A DNA stretch of 64,000 nucleotides from Nitrososphaera sp. Lineage in GTDB: Archaea > Thermoproteota > Nitrososphaeria > Nitrososphaerales > Nitrosopumilaceae. A program made the translations under genes and the position numbers. Positions within the stretch are counted from its first letter, which is position 1, and each line of letters begins with the position of its first letter. This document shows, in pieces, positions 54,886-60,282 of the stretch. The stretch spans positions 10,067 to 74,066 of the forward strand of contig JBDUUJ010000079.1 in the NCBI GenBank assembly GCA_039938575.1, read 5' to 3'. The notes beneath the pieces are model-generated. The model did no database searches. It saw only the letters and a program-made list of their open reading frames with translations, and was not told where the DNA came from.

Positions 54886-57800
54886 TCATCCTGATGTGCA
54901 ACCAGAGAATCCGCACTCGATGCAGATGCTGCATCCTTCAACGAAGACGAGGTTGTTCTTGCATGATGGGCACAACAGCTCCTCGCTTACCTCTTCTTTG
55001 ATCTGGCTTTCCTTGAGTGGCTCCTCTGGTATCTTGAGTGCCAGCGCGTTGTTTACCTGTGTTCTGATGTACGGGTTTTTGATGTTCTTTGCAATAAAGT
55101 CGCGCAGGTATGTGCTTGGCTCCACCTCAAATGTCTTTTCTGCGTTTTCGCTTGTCATATGCAATACTTGGGTGTGTCTTGAGCCGTCACGGTACACAGT
55201 GATTCCTTTGAGCCCAAGCTCGTGAGCCAAAAGATATGCTGCTTTTACGTCGTCTGCTGAGACATCGTGTGGCATGTTGATCGTCTTTGCGATTGCATTT
55301 CCGATCCATTCTTGCCAGACTGCCTGCGCCATGAGGTGATCGGACCAGTGTATGTCCATTGCGGTGACAAAGATATTTTGGATCCATTCTGGGATTTCCG
55401 GCAGCCCCCTCACTGAGCCGTAGTTGTCAGCTATTTTGGCAAGAATCTCGTCAGAGTAGAGTCCATTTTCGCGCAGTACCTGTTCGAAGATCTTGTTTGT
55501 GTAAAAGAACCTTCCAACTGTTACGCGCTTTTCAAAGACCAGTGCAAATGTTGGTTCCATGCCGTTTGAGCAGTCGGCAATCATGGAAAGCGTTCCGGTT
55601 GGAGCAACGGTGGTTGTGAGTACGTTTCTGATGCCATTCTTTTTGATTTTGGCAATTAGGGCGTCCCAGTCGTAATAGTGCTCGCTTTTTGGCTTTTCAT
55701 AGTATCCTGCAATTGGTATCTTTCCTTCAGGATATTCGGTCTTTGGACACAGATCGAATTCGCCTCTTGAGCGAGCAAGAGCCACACTTTCTTCCATGGA
55801 GTAATATGTGAGTGCTTCTGCAAGCTTTGATTGGAACTCGTATCCTTCCTTGGAATTGTATGGGATTCTAAGCTTGTACAGCAGATCTGCCACTCCCATA
55901 ACACCTAGTCCTATTCTTCTTGATTCTTTTGATGCCTTGTCGATTTCCGGAACCGGATAATTATTCATGTCGATTACGTTGTCCAAGAATCGTGTTGTCT
56001 TTCGTATTGTCTCTTCATATCTTTGCCAGTCAAACTCGTATTGGCCGTCAGCCTTCCTTTTCACAAGGTTTGCCAAGTTGATCGAGCCAAGGTTGCATGA
56101 CTCGTATGGATACAAGCTTTGTTCTCCACAGTTGTGAACTACAATCCCATTTGCCACGAAGGCATTGATGCCTGGTACTTGTGCATCATACACAACCTCC
56201 GTACCGTCTTCGATTAGTTCAGAAAACACTGCTGTTTGTTTCTGCAAGACGATGTAGTTTTTGCCCTCTGTTTCAGTATGTGCCAAAATGATGCTATCGC
56301 CAGCTTTGAGCTGTCCAGCTTCTTTCCACTCAAACGACAGTCCGTTTTGTTTTACTGCCACTTTGTGATCCTTAGTTAATCTAAGTTCGTATCCTTCTTT
56401 GGTTCTTAATTTGTATACTGGTTTTACTCCGGTGACAAAGAAGCCATCTGATCGCCACACAGTACCGTTTACAACTGCTTCAAAAGGAGTTCCGATTAGA
56501 TCTCTGACCATTCTTGGCCCTTCTGATGTTGCAATCCAGGTATCAGCTGTGACGCATGGGTTGGTGGCCCTCAGTGGCATGCCCCTTGCCTTTGCAAATA
56601 CGTTGTACTTGTTGATGTTATCAAAGAAGATCAGTCCCGGCTCTGCGCTCTTCCAAGCTGACAGTGCAATAATGTCGATGAGTTGGTGGGCGTTGACCTC
56701 TTTTACTGGAGATCTGTCGCGCGGGCTGCGAAGGGTGTACTTGCCGTCTGGGCTGTCAACCAATGCGGCCCAAAAGTCCTCCCAGATTCCCACACTTACG
56801 TTAAAGTTCTCCAGAATTCCTGGCTGCGTCTTGTTTGTGATGAATTTTTCAATGTCGGGGTGCCAGACCTCCAGGATTCCCATGTTTGCACCTCTTCGCT
56901 TGCCTCCCTGCTTGACCACCTCGGTTACGGTATTTATGATGTTCATAAACGAGACAGGTCCTGATGCCACGCCCGATGTCGAGGCCACAATGTCTCCTTC
57001 GTGCCTCAGATCTGAGTAATTGATTCCGACTCCTCCGCCTGACTTGAAGATTAGTGCTGCGTCTGATGTAGACTTCATGATGTCGTTCATATCGTCTGGC
57101 ATTCCAAGCACGAAGCAGGCCGACAGCTGTCCTAGTCGCGCCCCTGCGTTCATCATGGTAGGAGAGTTTGGCAAAAAGTCCTGCTCGGTCATCAAAGTAT
57201 AGTATTCGTTGATTCTTTCCGCATAGCTATCAAACTTTTTAGCTGCAATGAGTGTCAGAACCTCTTTGAAGCTCTTCTTCATCTGGCCACGCTTTGCCAA
57301 GTAGATGTAGTGGTTGATCAAGCCGCGGAAGTGGTATTTGTTAAGATAGTACTGGCCTATCTTGAACTTGTAATCAAAGTCGTCAAGCTTTGCAAGATAC
57401 TTTCTTGCTTCCTCGATATCCTGTGGGATGTTTCCTTCTTTTGAGAAGAGTTCAGAGTCATACAGGAGGTCACCTATTCCTACTAGGATCGCTACCCTCT
57501 CGAACATCTGGCTTGGGCTCTCAATTATCTCGTTTTTGTTGTTGCGTAGAAGGTACCTTGATGCTAGAACCCGCAGGCAGTTGAGGTCAAATGATTTTGC
57601 TACAGGGTCAAGTGATTTTGTATTTAGAACCTTCATTTTGTCTTCACGGATTTTGCGGCGCTCGTGTCTGTACAAAATGTAAGACTTGGCAATTTCGCCG
57701 TAGCCCATCTCGATCAGAGTTGATTCCACCATATCCTGCACGTCTTCGACACTTGGCGGACTGGAAGCTGAAAATCCCTGCTGGATTAGCTTCGATAAAA

Positions 57801-57966
57801 CTCCTCCAGTCAGCTCCTCTGCTATTTTGCGGTCTGGCTGGCCGTTTGCCACCAGAGCCTTGTAGATCGCATTAGTGATCTTTTCTTTGTTAAATGCTGT
57901 AATCCGACCGTCTCTTTTCTTAACGTCGACGATCGAACTTTCTATTTGAGAAAAATCTGTTGTCAT
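54886..57966 (-). CDS. nrdJ: Adenosylcobalamin-dependent ribonucleotide reductase (class II) with ATP-cone, intein-containing
   Basis: ATP-cone VKKRDG; PNSPT, QLSACF, GGKRRGANM, TNP/CGE, ESCNLGS, VAPTGT; ATG 57966 with upstream GAGGG. Confidence 0.96.
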   Translation of the reverse strand: MTTDFSQIESSIVDVKKRDGRITAFNKEKITNAIYKALVANGQPDRKIAEELTGGVLSKLIQQGFSASSPPSVEDVQDMVESTLIEMGYGEIAKSYILYRHERRKIREDKMKVLNTKSLDPVAKSFDLNCLRVLASRYLLRNNKNEIIESPSQMFERVAILVGIGDLLYDSELFSKEGNIPQDIEEARKYLAKLDDFDYKFKIGQYYLNKYHFRGLINHYIYLAKRGQMKKSFKEVLTLIAAKKFDSYAERINEYYTLMTEQDFLPNSPTMMNAGARLGQLSACFVLGMPDDMNDIMKSTSDAALIFKSGGGVGINYSDLRHEGDIVASTSGVASGPVSFMNIINTVTEVVKQGGKRRGANMGILEVWHPDIEKFITNKTQPGILENFNVSVGIWEDFWAALVDSPDGKYTLRSPRDRSPVKEVNAHQLIDIIALSAWKSAEPGLIFFDNINKYNVFAKARGMPLRATNPCVTADTWIATSEGPRMVRDLIGTPFEAVVNGTVWRSDGFFVTGVKPVYKLRTKEGYELRLTKDHKVAVKQNGLSFEWKEAGQLKAGDSIILAHTETEGKNYIVLQKQTAVFSELIEDGTEVVYDAQVPGINAFVANGIVVHNCGEQSLYPYESCNLGSINLANLVKRKADGQYEFDWQRYEETIRKTTRFLDNVIDMNNYPVPEIDKASKESRRIGLGVMGVADLLYKLRIPYNSKEGYEFQSKLAEALTYYSMEESVALARSRGEFDLCPKTEYPEGKIPIAGYYEKPKSEHYYDWDALIAKIKKNGIRNVLTTTVAPTGTLSMIADCSNGMEPTFALVFEKRVTVGRFFYTNKIFEQVLRENGLYSDEILAKIADNYGSVRGLPEIPEWIQNIFVTAMDIHWSDHLMAQAVWQEWIGNAIAKTINMPHDVSADDVKAAYLLAHELGLKGITVYRDGSRHTQVLHMTSENAEKTFEVEPSTYLRDFIAKNIKNPYIRTQVNNALALKIPEEPLKESQIKEEVSEELLCPSCKNNLVFVEGCSICIECGFSGCTSG
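56131..56556 (-). mobile_element. Mini-intein (142 aa, no homing endonuclease) in NrdJ
   Basis: Starts CVTADTWIAT, block B LRLTKDH, block F VYDAQV, ends VVHN followed by C+1; removal restores ..ATNP-CGEQ.. Confidence 0.95.
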
Positions 57967-58179
57967 AATGTCTCCCCTCACTAGGTAAAACCATATTGGA
58001 TATAACCCTGACTGCCAAAGATTTCAGATTTTAGCTCAACAATGTTTACACCATTCCAAGAAATTTTGGAAAGGTTGTTCCTAAACCCACATACGAATTT
58101 AGTTAATTTCAAAGTGGATCCATTCTCTGATACTGATTAATTTTTATCCCACAAAAATAGATGTTGCGAATTTCGATTT

Positions 58180-60282
58180 TTAGCTAAGTATGAACGGCGA
58201 TTTACATGCAGGGCATTTGTCAAAGAGTTTTTCATCCTTGAAGCCGCAGTTGCCGCAGATCGGCACCTCTTTGCTTGGCCTAAATGAGCCTACCAGATCG
58301 CCGGCTTTCTCTATTGCCTTCCTGATATCGTCTGTTTTGGAGTCCTTCTCAAAGCGGAGTCTGACTAAAAGCCCGCCGTTGAGGAGTTTGGCTACCTTGT
58401 TTGTCTCGGCAACCTTTTCTGCCTTGGGGCTCAAAGAGTCGATCTCAGACGATAAAATGACTACACCTTCCGAATAACTTTCCCCTTCGAGGGATTTTAG
58501 AACCGACATTTTACCATATTTTTCTCCGTCAAGGGAGCCAAACCTTGCTGTTCCGTCGCTCTCAGTCATGCAGACTACCACTGTGTCGCCCATCTCTTTG
58601 CCCTTCTTTTCTGCCACATCTACTGCAGTTTGGATCACTTTGTGGATCACGTCACGGCCTTCCTTGTCGTCGTTGTATCCAAGTATGCTAAAGACTGCTT
58701 CTTTGAGGCCTACCAAATTTACTACAAGGCAGATTGAGCTTCGTTGCATGTACTGCGTGTTTGCCGCCAGGACCGGGTTTAGTCCCCTTCTTGTGAGATC
58801 GGAGATGTCTTTTTTGCGCAACGACATTGCTGCAAGGGCAGGCTTCATCAGCAATGCAAGTCTGGCCCTAAAATAAGTCTCGTCCTTGTTTGACTCAAAC
58901 GCAAGTCTTGGCAGGTTGATCGTAAGTGACTGCAAGTTGATCGATGACGTACTGTTTTTTCCTTTGATCCTCAAGACGCCACTGTACGAAGACTCGTCCT
59001 TTGAGAAGAGGACTTTGCCTCCAAGCGAAATTATCTCTGCAACTGTCTGAGACACATCTGCGATCTTACCTGATGCGTAATCGATTATGATGCCCACTTG
59101 GGGCGCCGGAGTCATCTTGACATAAGTCTTGTATGCGTTCAGTATTGCTTGCACCACCTTTGGTTCTGCGCTAAGCTGGAGCCTAAATGAGACTAGAGTT
59201 GGCTCTTTTGTATACTTGGATGATACAGAGGAGGTGGCAAATGCACCCACTAGTTTTTCTTCAAGCTCAGAGAGGTTCTTTGCATACTTTGAGCAAAGTT
59301 GTACGAGGCCGTCAAGAACCACTTCCTTTGAGGCTTCCTTTGAGACAAGCGAGATCATCATAGAAAGAGATGACATGAGGTTGTCAAGTGTCTTTACTGT
59401 TGGAATTCTTGTGACGCCTAGATATTTGCCTTTGAGATCAAGTCCGTCCTCGATGAGCTCCTTTATGTTAAAGAAGATCGTGTCTGGCAAAAGCGACCAT
59501 ATGCCTGGATTTGAGATGTGAATGTCGCCTGAGAGGTGCGAGTCTGCCACATCCTTTGGAAGGGTATTTAAAAGGAGGTTTTCTGCAAATACTGCCTGGC
59601 CTGCCTTAAAGAAGAGGCCCTGTGAACCATTATCAATATTGTCTACGTTTGTGAGCATCTCTTGGACGTCAAATACTGGCATCCCGAGCCTGGCAAGTTT
59701 GTTTCTGTACTCTTCGTGGCCGTGCTCAAGGAGTACAGAGTTTACCATTTCTCGGATAAGTGAGCCTGTAAGGTAGGTGGTCTGGTATTTGTAGATGCGG
59801 TTTTCCACCTCTTCTGTGATTTTTTGGGCAAGTTCCAGAGGAAGGCTGCCTTCTCGAACCAGTGACTGGATTATCTTGTGCGAGTTGAACTCTTCGATGG
59901 ATTCGTGCGAGGTTCTCACATACATCTTGCCGCTTTCGATGATTGAACGCTCCTCGATCTGCCTTGCAAGACTCAGTACTAGCTTGCCAAGATTTGTGAT
60001 TGTGTACCTGCGCTCCGATTTGTTTAGTGCAACAAGTGATTGTCTGAGAAGCTTTCTTAGGTGGTACGCAAATTTCCCACTTTCTTTTTTTGACTTGAAG
60101 CCTGCAAGTGATTTAAGCTCGGAATAAGTAAGTGGCCCCTTTGAGTTGAGGATCCGCAAAATGTCGATCCTGTTGGGGCTTGCCATTACGGAGAAGATCA
60201 TCCTGACACGCTTTGATGTGGATTGTAAAATGCCACCGCTCTTCTTGGGATCTACTGTCCCAGTGGCCACTTCGATGCTCAT
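58180..60282 (-). CDS. ArsR-HTH + ATP-cone + NrdD-like (class III RNR-derived) protein, apparently catalytically inactive
   Basis: HTH (NRIDILRIL..TYSEL..FAYHLRKL), ATP-cone, HLSGDIHI, TINLPRLA, NLVGLKEA, C-terminal CxxC..CxxC; no RxxGY glycyl motif. Confidence 0.85.
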   Translation of the reverse strand: MSIEVATGTVDPKKSGGILQSTSKRVRMIFSVMASPNRIDILRILNSKGPLTYSELKSLAGFKSKKESGKFAYHLRKLLRQSLVALNKSERRYTITNLGKLVLSLARQIEERSIIESGKMYVRTSHESIEEFNSHKIIQSLVREGSLPLELAQKITEEVENRIYKYQTTYLTGSLIREMVNSVLLEHGHEEYRNKLARLGMPVFDVQEMLTNVDNIDNGSQGLFFKAGQAVFAENLLLNTLPKDVADSHLSGDIHISNPGIWSLLPDTIFFNIKELIEDGLDLKGKYLGVTRIPTVKTLDNLMSSLSMMISLVSKEASKEVVLDGLVQLCSKYAKNLSELEEKLVGAFATSSVSSKYTKEPTLVSFRLQLSAEPKVVQAILNAYKTYVKMTPAPQVGIIIDYASGKIADVSQTVAEIISLGGKVLFSKDESSYSGVLRIKGKNSTSSINLQSLTINLPRLAFESNKDETYFRARLALLMKPALAAMSLRKKDISDLTRRGLNPVLAANTQYMQRSSICLVVNLVGLKEAVFSILGYNDDKEGRDVIHKVIQTAVDVAEKKGKEMGDTVVVCMTESDGTARFGSLDGEKYGKMSVLKSLEGESYSEGVVILSSEIDSLSPKAEKVAETNKVAKLLNGGLLVRLRFEKDSKTDDIRKAIEKAGDLVGSFRPSKEVPICGNCGFKDEKLFDKCPACKSPFILS

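What the first reader, a model, noticed from the sequence alone, without database searches (positions are those of the whole stretch)
56131..56556. Mini-intein sitting on the catalytic thiyl cysteine of NrdJ
The 142-aa, endonuclease-free intein is inserted at TNP/CGE, a known RNR intein site. Its C+1 nucleophile is the radical-forming Cys, so dNTP synthesis depends on splicing. Loss of the homing endonuclease with retention of the intein hints at persistence or use as a redox/metal-conditional switch. Inteins appear uncommon in AOA, so it may have been acquired from a virus or another archaeon.
Basis: partly seen in the sequence, partly recalled or inferred. Interest (0 to 1): 0.65.

Follow-up and report, generated by a model that had tools for sequence, protein, structure and literature searches.

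The report
Endonuclease-free intein in archaeal NrdJ
The B12-dependent ribonucleotide reductase gene of a hot-spring ammonia-oxidising archaeon (Nitrosotenuis) is interrupted, just before its catalytic cysteine, by a real 142-residue self-splicing mini-intein; this is an ordinary element at that enzyme's commonest intein site, and its relatives in the same genus show empty, nuclease-bearing and nuclease-free versions side by side.

Summary
Window 56131..56556 (minus strand) encodes a 142-aa class-1 mini-intein, CVTADT...VVHN. It sits between TNP and CGEQ of a 1026-aa class II ribonucleotide reductase (NrdJ). The +1 Cys aligns with Cys322 of Thermotoga maritima NrdJ, which from memory is the thiyl-radical residue.

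All splicing residues are present. The modelled fold matches solved mini-inteins. No endonuclease domain is present.

The site is the most frequent intein site in class I/II RNRs, and more than 110 other NrdJ proteins carry homologous inteins there. So this is a new member of a known kind.

Among the 121 nearest NrdJ clusters, 103 are empty, 11 carry a 363-aa LAGLIDADG intein and 7 carry the mini-intein. Apart from one more distant archaeal NrdJ, all occupied alleles lie in the Nitrosotenuis clade.

- The mini-intein is under purifying selection and has co-diverged with its host gene.
- The full-size intein is still homing. Ca. N. uzonensis has both an occupied and an empty allele, with a co-conversion tract between them.

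The best explanation is a homing-cycle remnant that persists because only precise deletion is tolerated at this site. The redox/metal switch idea has no support here, and neither does a viral origin.

The parts
54886..57966 (-). nrdJ precursor gene, 1026 codons plus stop. It encodes a class II (adenosylcobalamin-type) ribonucleotide reductase with an ATP-cone, an all-alpha domain, the barrel and a C-terminal Cys-rich finger. The likely start is ATG at 57966 (MTTDFSQ), as in all homologues; the mechanical ORF runs on to GTG at 57981.
   Evidence: Homologues P0002-P0008 all start MTTDFSQ and are 1024-1026 aa or 1247 aa long.
56557..57966 (-). N-extein, 470 aa, ending ...GMPLRATNP (Pro at -1).
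   Evidence: N-extein length is 1410 nt in every allele compared.
56131..56556 (-). Mini-intein, 142 aa, class 1, HINT fold, no homing endonuclease.
56554..56556 (-). Block A nucleophile Cys1 (TGC), the only Cys in the intein.
   Evidence: Invariant in alignment A1.
56365..56376 (-). Block B motif T61-K-D-H64 (TxxH).
   Evidence: T61 and H64 are invariant in A1.
56236..56280 (-). Short linker (about residues 93-107, HTETEGKNYIVLQKQ) at the place where relatives carry a ~220-aa LAGLIDADG endonuclease. It is the only lower-confidence part of the model.
   Evidence: Alignment with the full-size inteins P0008/P0014. pLDDT is about 70 over residues 91-110.
56185..56187 (-). Block F Asp124 (VYD).
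   Evidence: Invariant in A1.
56131..56136 (-). Block G His141-Asn142. The terminal Asn cyclises to release the intein.
   Evidence: Invariant in A1.
56128..56130 (-). Cys+1 (TGT). It is both the splicing nucleophile and the finger-loop Cys of NrdJ that would form the thiyl radical.
   Evidence: It aligns to residue 322 of T. maritima NrdJ in STNPCGE. [quoted passage not shown]
54886..56130 (-). C-extein, 414 aa plus stop, beginning [13 protein letters not shown] and ending in a Cys-rich zinc finger (CPSC...CSICIECGFSGC).
   Evidence: The zinc-finger family is described in PMC5704485.

Best explanation
This is a canonical class-1 mini-intein. It belongs to the large allelic family of inteins inserted directly before the thiyl-radical cysteine of class I/II ribonucleotide reductases.

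Mechanism (inferred from conserved residues, not assayed):
1. The 1026-aa precursor is inactive, because a 142-aa HINT domain splits the finger loop.
2. Cys1 makes a thioester with Pro-1.
3. Cys+1 attacks that thioester.
4. Asn142 cyclises and releases the intein.
5. An S-to-N shift yields the mature 884-aa NrdJ with the TNPCGE loop restored.

Evolution (shown by comparison): a LAGLIDADG-bearing intein of the same family circulates by homing in the genus Nitrosotenuis. One lineage lost the nuclease once. The resulting mini-intein cannot move by itself. It has been passed down vertically in a subclade that includes this genome, and it stays under purifying selection because an unspliced or imprecisely deleted allele of what is probably the only working RNR should be lethal. 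An occupied site also cannot be cut by the circulating endonuclease. The window therefore shows the nuclease-free stage of the classical homing cycle, not a host-evolved switch.
For: - **Anatomy and fold:**
- **Family size:** more than 110 NrdJ proteins have NP|C...HN|CGE inteins, mostly ~375 aa with LAGLIDADG. An exhaustive search found 2149 representative clusters at E<=1e-3 and 775 at E<=1e-10.
- **Literature on the site:** PMC2677866.
- **Allele census by C-extein similarity:** 103 empty, 11 full and 7 mini among the 121 nearest clusters.
- **Mini-inteins share one origin:** they have the same deletion and a shared 4-aa gap, and form one clade (99/93; 77/82).
- **Purifying selection and co-divergence:** omega is 0.07-0.21. 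Intein dS is 0.22-0.58 against extein dS 0.54-0.66 in the closest pairs, and about 2 against about 2 for L087/L088.
- **Active homing of the full-size form:** it needs 10 state changes for 11 rows on the extein tree. Both LAGLIDADG motifs are intact, and the HEN domain has omega 0.10.
- **Polymorphism within one species:** Ca. N. uzonensis has an occupied allele (CDI04934.1) and an empty one (CAE6492271.1). Their extein proteins are identical. 33 of their 73 nucleotide differences lie between -18 and +122 nt of the site (P=6e-23).
- **Neighbouring gene:** the NrdD-like gene ends straight after its zinc ribbon, with no glycyl-radical tail.
Against: - Splicing was not observed. No proteomic or RNA data were available, and the runs found were metagenomic contigs only.
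- Descent of the mini clade from the AOA full-size clade is well supported only in the small data set (99/97). When mini-inteins from other hosts are added, that grouping disappears, although an AU test does not reject it (p=0.4).
- One empty allele (P0122/L102) sits next to the WIN group with no visible conversion tract. Loss or exchange of the mini-intein therefore does occur.
Confidence: 0.85

Rival explanations
1. Conditional-splicing switch. The mini-intein is kept because the host uses it to gate NrdJ maturation, and so dNTP supply, by redox state, Cu/Zn, NO or temperature. The gate could be a Cys1-Cys+1 disulfide or metal binding at the splice junction.
For: - Cys1 and Cys+1 are both cysteines and are adjacent in the precursor.
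- Pro-1 is (from memory) an unfavourable residue for the first step.
- The organism comes from hot-spring and microbial-mat metagenomes.
- The intein is under purifying selection.
- Conditional or beneficial inteins are documented elsewhere: Pho RadA (PMC4513877) and the Aquifex R2 intein that aids iron loading (PMC8772380).
Against: - Purifying selection is expected for any intein in an essential gene.
- There is no second conserved Cys in the intein, and none in the last 40 N-extein residues.
- Cys1, Pro-1 and Cys+1 are shared by all >110 inteins at this site, in unrelated hosts, so they are site features and not an AOA adaptation.
- Close relatives do without the intein. 103 of 121 nearest clusters are empty, including one 98% identical in the C-extein.
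Confidence: 0.08
2. Frequency-dependent 'immunity' allele. The mini-intein is maintained because it blocks the recognition site of the costly LAGLIDADG intein circulating in the same genus. Empty, nuclease-bearing and nuclease-free alleles then coexist in rock-paper-scissors fashion.
For: - All three allele types coexist in one genus, and two of them in one named species.
- The full-size intein is actively homing.
- Theory predicts such coexistence (PMC3229294; PMC1654191).
Against: - No allele-frequency data were obtained within single populations. The laid contigs showed only the occupied form of this strain.
- The mini clade looks old and vertically inherited rather than cycling.
- This reading largely adds to the best explanation rather than replacing it.
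Confidence: 0.35
3. Recent horizontal acquisition of the mini-intein from a virus or a non-AOA organism.
For: - The family spans bacteria, viruses and archaea.
- With more mini-inteins included, the AOA mini clade groups weakly (64/84) with minis from other hosts.
Against: - The best viral matches are 40-51% identical, and all are full-size.
- Intein dS matches extein dS.
- Intein GC is 43.7% against 46.6% for the gene.
- The extein flanks of WIN show no conversion tract against its nearest relatives.
- A nuclease-free intein has no means of homing.
Confidence: 0.04

Closest known systems
Contiguous inteins inserted directly N-terminal to the thiyl-radical Cys of class I/II RNRs (the 'RIR1' inteins of InBase; Dassa et al. 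2009, PMC2677866)
   Same: The insertion point is identical (NP|C, with Cys+1 the radical Cys). Sequence is homologous, at 40-64% identity in the splicing halves to >110 NrdJ inteins. Chemistry is class 1.
   Different: Most members carry a LAGLIDADG endonuclease of ~220 aa; this one has a ~15-aa linker in its place. The host is an ammonia-oxidising archaeon, a group in which I found no published description of an RNR intein.
LAGLIDADG intein of Candidatus Nitrosotenuis uzonensis NrdJ (CDI04934.1 / WP_052370020.1, in the cluster of P0008)
   Same: Same genus, same site and same gene neighbourhood (HTH-NrdD-like, nrdJ, 365-aa gene, EMG1). Exteins are 93% identical. The first 21 intein residues are identical.
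   Different: It is 363 aa with an intact endonuclease under selection, and it is still mobile. Splicing-domain identity to the window's intein is only about 60-64%. The genome paper (PMC3835317) has no occurrence of the word 'intein'.
Mth RIR1 mini-intein of Methanothermobacter thermautotrophicus class II RNR (134 aa; used in pTWIN2 vectors)
   Same: From memory, it is a natural archaeal mini-intein in the same enzyme with Pro-1 and Cys+1. Its use as a small contiguous intein is confirmed in PMC7784762 and PMC7765530.
   Different: I did not compare its sequence or site here, so treat the resemblance as a lead and not a test.
Npu/Ssp DnaB and Mtu RecA mini-inteins (4o1r, 1mi8, 6frh, 2in0)
   Same: They are the best structural and sequence matches among solved structures: TM 0.75-0.84 with the same HINT fold and the same blocks.
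   Different: They have different host proteins and sites. Identity is only ~25%, and several are engineered deletions rather than natural minis.

Membership tests
Class 1 intein (HINT splicing domain) | In-frame insert in a conserved host protein whose homologues are contiguous across the site | tested here: met
   103 close NrdJ homologues read ATNPCGEQ uninterrupted. The extein aligns gaplessly to 1xje.
Class 1 intein (HINT splicing domain) | Block A Cys/Ser1, block B TxxH, block F Asp, block G His-Asn, and a +1 Cys/Ser/Thr | tested here: met
   C1, T61/H64, D124, H141-N142 and C+1 are all present and invariant across 13 aligned inteins. The block F second His is Asn in this whole family (GINAF).
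Class 1 intein (HINT splicing domain) | HINT fold | tested here: met
   The model has pLDDT 91.9. Foldseek gives E 1.5e-10 and TM 0.78-0.84 to solved inteins, and also matches Hedgehog HINT.
Class 1 intein (HINT splicing domain) | Autocatalytic protein splicing | not testable with these tools
   It is inferred from intact residues, omega 0.07-0.21 and the essential host gene.
Mini-intein | No homing-endonuclease domain between the splicing halves | tested here: met
   It is 142 aa long. Pfam finds no LAGLIDADG, HNH or other nuclease. Aligned relatives carry PF14528 at the gap.
RNR thiyl-Cys-site allelic intein family | Insertion directly N-terminal to the finger-loop radical Cys, and sequence homology to other inteins at that site | tested here: met
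   with PMC2677866.
Conditional (redox-trap type) intein | A second Cys placed to form a disulfide with Cys1 (in the intein or near -3 of the N-extein) | tested here: not met
   The intein's only Cys is Cys1. There is none in the last 40 N-extein residues.
Conditional (redox-trap type) intein | Cys1-Cys+1 disulfide, or metal or temperature control of splicing | not testable with these tools
   Both cysteines exist, but they do so in every intein at this site. An assay is needed.
Class II ribonucleotide reductase (NrdJ), host protein | RNR barrel with finger-loop Cys, closest to solved B12-dependent enzymes | tested here: met
   PF02867 at 1.3e-143. The best PDB match is T. maritima B12-dependent RNR at 2e-119. 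Sources name the homologues adenosylcobalamin-dependent. Cofactor binding itself was not tested.

The most novel reading that the evidence does not exclude
The mini-intein may be more than a stranded parasite. In these hot-spring Nitrosotenuis it could act as a post-translational gate on the cell's only working ribonucleotide reductase. Splicing at the Pro-1/Cys1...Cys+1 junction would be slowed or blocked by oxidants, NO, copper/zinc or temperature, so that DNA-precursor synthesis pauses under stress.

A lesser but likelier novelty is that the coexistence of empty, nuclease-bearing and nuclease-free alleles, together with a fresh co-conversion tract, gives direct evidence of ongoing DNA exchange between AOA cells in nature.
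Probability: 0.1. Interest if true: 0.6.

Novelty: new member of a known kind. Interest (0 to 1): 0.3.

Why it matters
By itself this is one more intein at the best-known RNR site, so it is mainly an annotation point. The gene product is an 884-aa NrdJ after splicing, and databases list the 1026-aa precursor without comment.

The comparative result has more value. One genus of ammonia-oxidising archaea holds all three stages of the homing cycle at a single site. A named species (Ca. N. uzonensis) is polymorphic for the nuclease-bearing intein and shows a clear co-conversion tract. Homing requires that DNA from one cell enters another, so this is a usable marker of gene flow in AOA, in the way inteins have been used in Halobacteria (PMC4071816).

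The natural 142-aa Cys1/Cys+1 mini-intein from a moderately thermophilic host may also interest protein engineers.

Tried and rejected
- **Biased first survey:** the genome contigs survey with the spliced extein returned 80 loci, all empty. I do not use '0 of 80' as a frequency. Ranking seems to follow the best contiguous segment, which pushes split (occupied) alleles down the list. The census by C-extein region replaces it.
- **Single-sequence AlphaFold:** this failed (pLDDT 38.9). The alignment-based run was used instead.
- **Viral donor idea:** the phage and IMG/VR searches gave only 22-51% identical inteins, so I rejected it.
- **Metagenome contigs:** laying contigs of four runs on the locus showed the occupied allele at depth ~116 with no exact empty-site joint. 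The joints listed come from other organisms. Contigs cannot show absence.
- **Other inteins in the window:** a tblastn of all collected inteins against the window found no second intein of this family.
- **Wider intein tree:** it did not resolve whether the AOA mini clade descends from the AOA full-size clade.
- **Mth RIR1:** I could not compare its sequence, because no copy is held in the tools.
Full report
**1. What is in the sequence**

ORF 54886..57981 on the minus strand is a class II ribonucleotide reductase. Pfam finds the RNR barrel (1.3e-143), an ATP-cone, the all-alpha domain and an intein splicing domain. It finds no nuclease domain.

Translating 56131-56556 on the minus strand gives 142 residues, from Cys to Asn: CVTADTWIATSEGPRMVRDLIGTPFEAVVNGTVWRSDGFFVTGVKPVYKLRTKEGYELRLTKDHKVAVKQNGLSFEWKEAGQLKAGDSIILAHTETEGKNYIVLQKQTAVFSELIEDGTEVVYDAQVPGINAFVANGIVVHN. 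The flanks are ...LRATNP and [13 protein letters not shown]....

All homologues start at MTTDFSQ. The true start is therefore probably ATG at 57966, giving a 1026-aa precursor and an 884-aa mature protein.

**2. It is a real intein**

- The insert alone matches solved mini-inteins by sequence: Npu DnaB 2.6e-8, also Ssp DnaB, Mtu RecA and Pho RadA.
- A single-sequence AlphaFold model was useless (pLDDT 38.9).
- With a 13-row alignment of inteins taken from fetched loci (A1) the model reached pLDDT 91.9 and pTM 0.85.
- Foldseek placed that model on DnaB, RecA and GyrA inteins, with E down to 1.5e-10 and TM 0.75-0.84.
- The invariant columns of A1 include C1, T61, H64, D124, H141 and N142. These are blocks A, B, F and G of a class-1 intein, and the +1 residue is Cys.
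- The only weakly modelled stretch is residues ~91-110. That is the linker standing where relatives carry an endonuclease.

**3. The site**

With the intein removed, the protein aligns end to end with T. maritima B12-dependent RNR (1xje/1xjk, E about 2e-119). The +1 Cys falls on residue 322 in STNPCGE. From memory, Cys322 is the thiyl-radical Cys of that enzyme.

The literature I read says that the finger loop carries the conserved Cys that abstracts the 3' hydrogen (PMC4493059). [quoted passage not shown] RNR is the second most common intein host in bacteria and the fourth in archaea (PMC4760082).

**4. Family**

A search restricted to the intein part of the precursor returned 199 proteins. 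Almost all of the listed 120 read NP|CVTADTW...HN|CGE, with inteins of ~360-380 aa carrying PF14528 LAGLIDADG.

An exhaustive phmmer search of 1.84 billion representatives found 2149 clusters at E<=1e-3 and 775 at E<=1e-10. These include independent mini-inteins of 127-157 aa at the same finger-loop site in other RNR lineages.

Viral contigs and phage genomes also carry same-site inteins, but at only 22-51% identity, and those examined in IMG/VR are full-size. Earlier notes of this scan on other genomes reached the same view, that this site is ordinary.

**5. Who has it among AOA**

The first survey (genome contigs, spliced extein) gave 80 loci of Nitrosotenuis, Nitrosopumilaceae, Nitrosotalea and Nitrosopelagicus, all with an empty site. 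I set that count aside. The list seems to be ranked by the best contiguous segment, which penalises split alleles.

A search on the C-extein alone is blind to the intein. Of the 121 nearest 90%-identity clusters, counting the window:
- 103 are empty.
- 11 carry a full-size intein (ten of 363 aa, one of 355 aa).
- 7 carry a mini-intein of 140-143 aa.

All occupied alleles fall in the Nitrosotenuis clade, except P0014, whose extein is only ~65% identical. Gene order around nrdJ is the same in all of them: HTH-ATP-cone-NrdD-like gene, nrdJ, a 365-aa gene, then EMG1.

A published survey counted one intein-bearing gene in 18 Thaumarchaeota genomes (PMC10643990). Another noted two PolB1 inteins in N. 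gargensis (PMC4104785). I found no paper describing an RNR intein in AOA.

**6. History of the mini-intein**

All seven mini-inteins share the same deletion of the endonuclease region, and a 4-residue gap after KDHKVA. They form one clade, supported 99/93 and 77/82. A single loss of the nuclease is the simplest reading.

In the closest pairs (WIN, L085, L086, L090):
- Intein dN/dS is 0.07-0.21.
- Intein dS is 0.22-0.58, against extein dS of 0.54-0.66.

For the more distant L087/L088, both intein dS and extein dS are about 2. The intein has therefore diverged together with its host gene under purifying selection. It evolves 4-6 times faster at the protein level than the extein.

The extein flanks of the window show no local excess of differences against its nearest relatives. 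Intein GC (43.7%) is close to that of the gene (46.6%). This is vertical inheritance within a subclade, not recent import.

One empty allele (P0122/L102, 8.1% nucleotide divergence) sits beside the WIN group. Precise loss, or replacement by an empty allele, also happens.

Whether the mini clade descends from the AOA full-size clade is likely but not settled. Support is 99/97 with a small outgroup set. The grouping is lost when other mini-inteins are added, yet it is not rejected (AU p=0.4).

**7. The full-size sibling is still homing**

On the extein tree the 11 full-size alleles need 10 changes of state. Several sit next to nearly identical empty alleles.

The cluster of P0008 contains the NrdJ of Ca. 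Nitrosotenuis uzonensis (CDI04934.1, 1247 aa). P0134 is an empty 884-aa NrdJ also labelled Ca. N. uzonensis (CAE6492271.1). For the occupied P0008 locus (L081) and the empty P0134 locus (L101):
- The extein proteins are identical.
- At the DNA level they differ at 73 of 2655 positions.
- 33 of those differences lie between -18 and +122 nt of the insertion point, where about 4 are expected (P=6e-23).
- The upstream 3 kb differ by 1.2%.

That is a co-conversion tract. In that stretch L081 resembles the L104/L105 lineage more than it resembles its own close relative.

A second pair (L104 full, L105 empty) differs by 1.1% with no tract. That is presence/absence polymorphism inside one population.

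Both LAGLIDADG motifs are intact (LMGLMIGDG, KGLFDADG). The nuclease domain has dN/dS 0.10. P0014's intein nests among the Nitrosotenuis ones although its host gene is distant, which is a transfer between lineages.

**8. Mechanism and rivals**

The best-supported account is the nuclease-free stage of the homing cycle (PMC1654191). The intein splices by the standard four steps. It cannot be lost except by exact deletion, because it splits the catalytic loop of an essential enzyme (PMC2814812). It also makes its allele uncuttable by the circulating nuclease.

Models predict that empty, nuclease-bearing and nuclease-free alleles can coexist (PMC3229294). The census here fits that picture.

The switch idea is not excluded, but nothing here favours it:
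- The intein has a single Cys, and no Cys lies in the last 40 N-extein residues.
- Pro-1, Cys1 and Cys+1 are common to all inteins at this site.
- Most close relatives live without the intein.

'dNTP synthesis depends on splicing' holds if NrdJ is the only working RNR. The neighbouring NrdD-like gene (58180-60282) has an HTH and an ATP-cone, and it ends right after its zinc ribbon with no glycyl-radical tail. The rest of the genome could not be searched.

**9. Source**

The exact sequence is held by hot-spring and microbial-mat metagenome runs. In the best run the contig covers the whole locus at word depth ~116 with no differences. No RNA or proteome evidence was available.

**10. Verdict**

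It is a new member of a known kind.

The added value is the three-allele picture in Nitrosotenuis and the co-conversion tract in Ca. N. uzonensis, which can be used as a marker of gene flow in AOA.

Noticed in passing
L081:6001-9744 versus L101:3001-5655 (Ca. Nitrosotenuis uzonensis alleles): One named AOA species has both a LAGLIDADG-intein allele (CDI04934.1) and an empty allele (CAE6492271.1) of nrdJ. The extein proteins are identical. Synonymous differences are packed into -18..+122 nt of the site, which is a co-conversion tract. The published genome paper does not mention an intein.
   Followed up: yes
window 58180-60282 (-): A 700-aa protein with HTH_20/DUF7347, an ATP-cone and an NrdD-like barrel. 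It ends just after its Cys4 ribbon with no glycyl-radical tail. It is syntenic upstream of nrdJ in every Nitrosotenuis locus fetched.
   Followed up: partly
L084:950-4789: An archaeal NrdJ only ~65% identical in its extein carries a 363-aa intein that nests among the Nitrosotenuis full-size inteins (sister to P0161). This suggests intein transfer between distant archaeal lineages. The host organism was not identified.
   Followed up: partly
window 54886-54990 (-), C-terminus of NrdJ: A Cys-rich tail, CPSCKNNLVFVEGCSICIECGFSGC. It is the zinc-finger domain reported for most class II RNRs as the electron-delivery module (PMC5704485).
   Followed up: no
window 57966-57981 (-): The mechanical ORF starts at GTG 57981, but all homologues start at the ATG five codons downstream (MTTDFSQ). 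The real start is probably 57966.
   Followed up: partly
window 56024-56115, contig of run X10: A low-depth contig from a mat metagenome departs from the window at 56115. It reads on as ...LVVHN|CGEQP, which is the C-terminal junction of another organism's intein at the same RNR site. Several same-site inteins therefore coexist in such mats.
   Followed up: no
P0301, P0323, P0349, P0380, P0392 (representative library): Mini-inteins of 127-149 aa, up to 59% identical to this one, sit at NP|C in RNR-like hosts whose C-flank is CMEIL, CAEEPL, CVEVG or CNEIL rather than CGEQ. The family crosses RNR subclasses and loses its nuclease repeatedly.
   Followed up: partly
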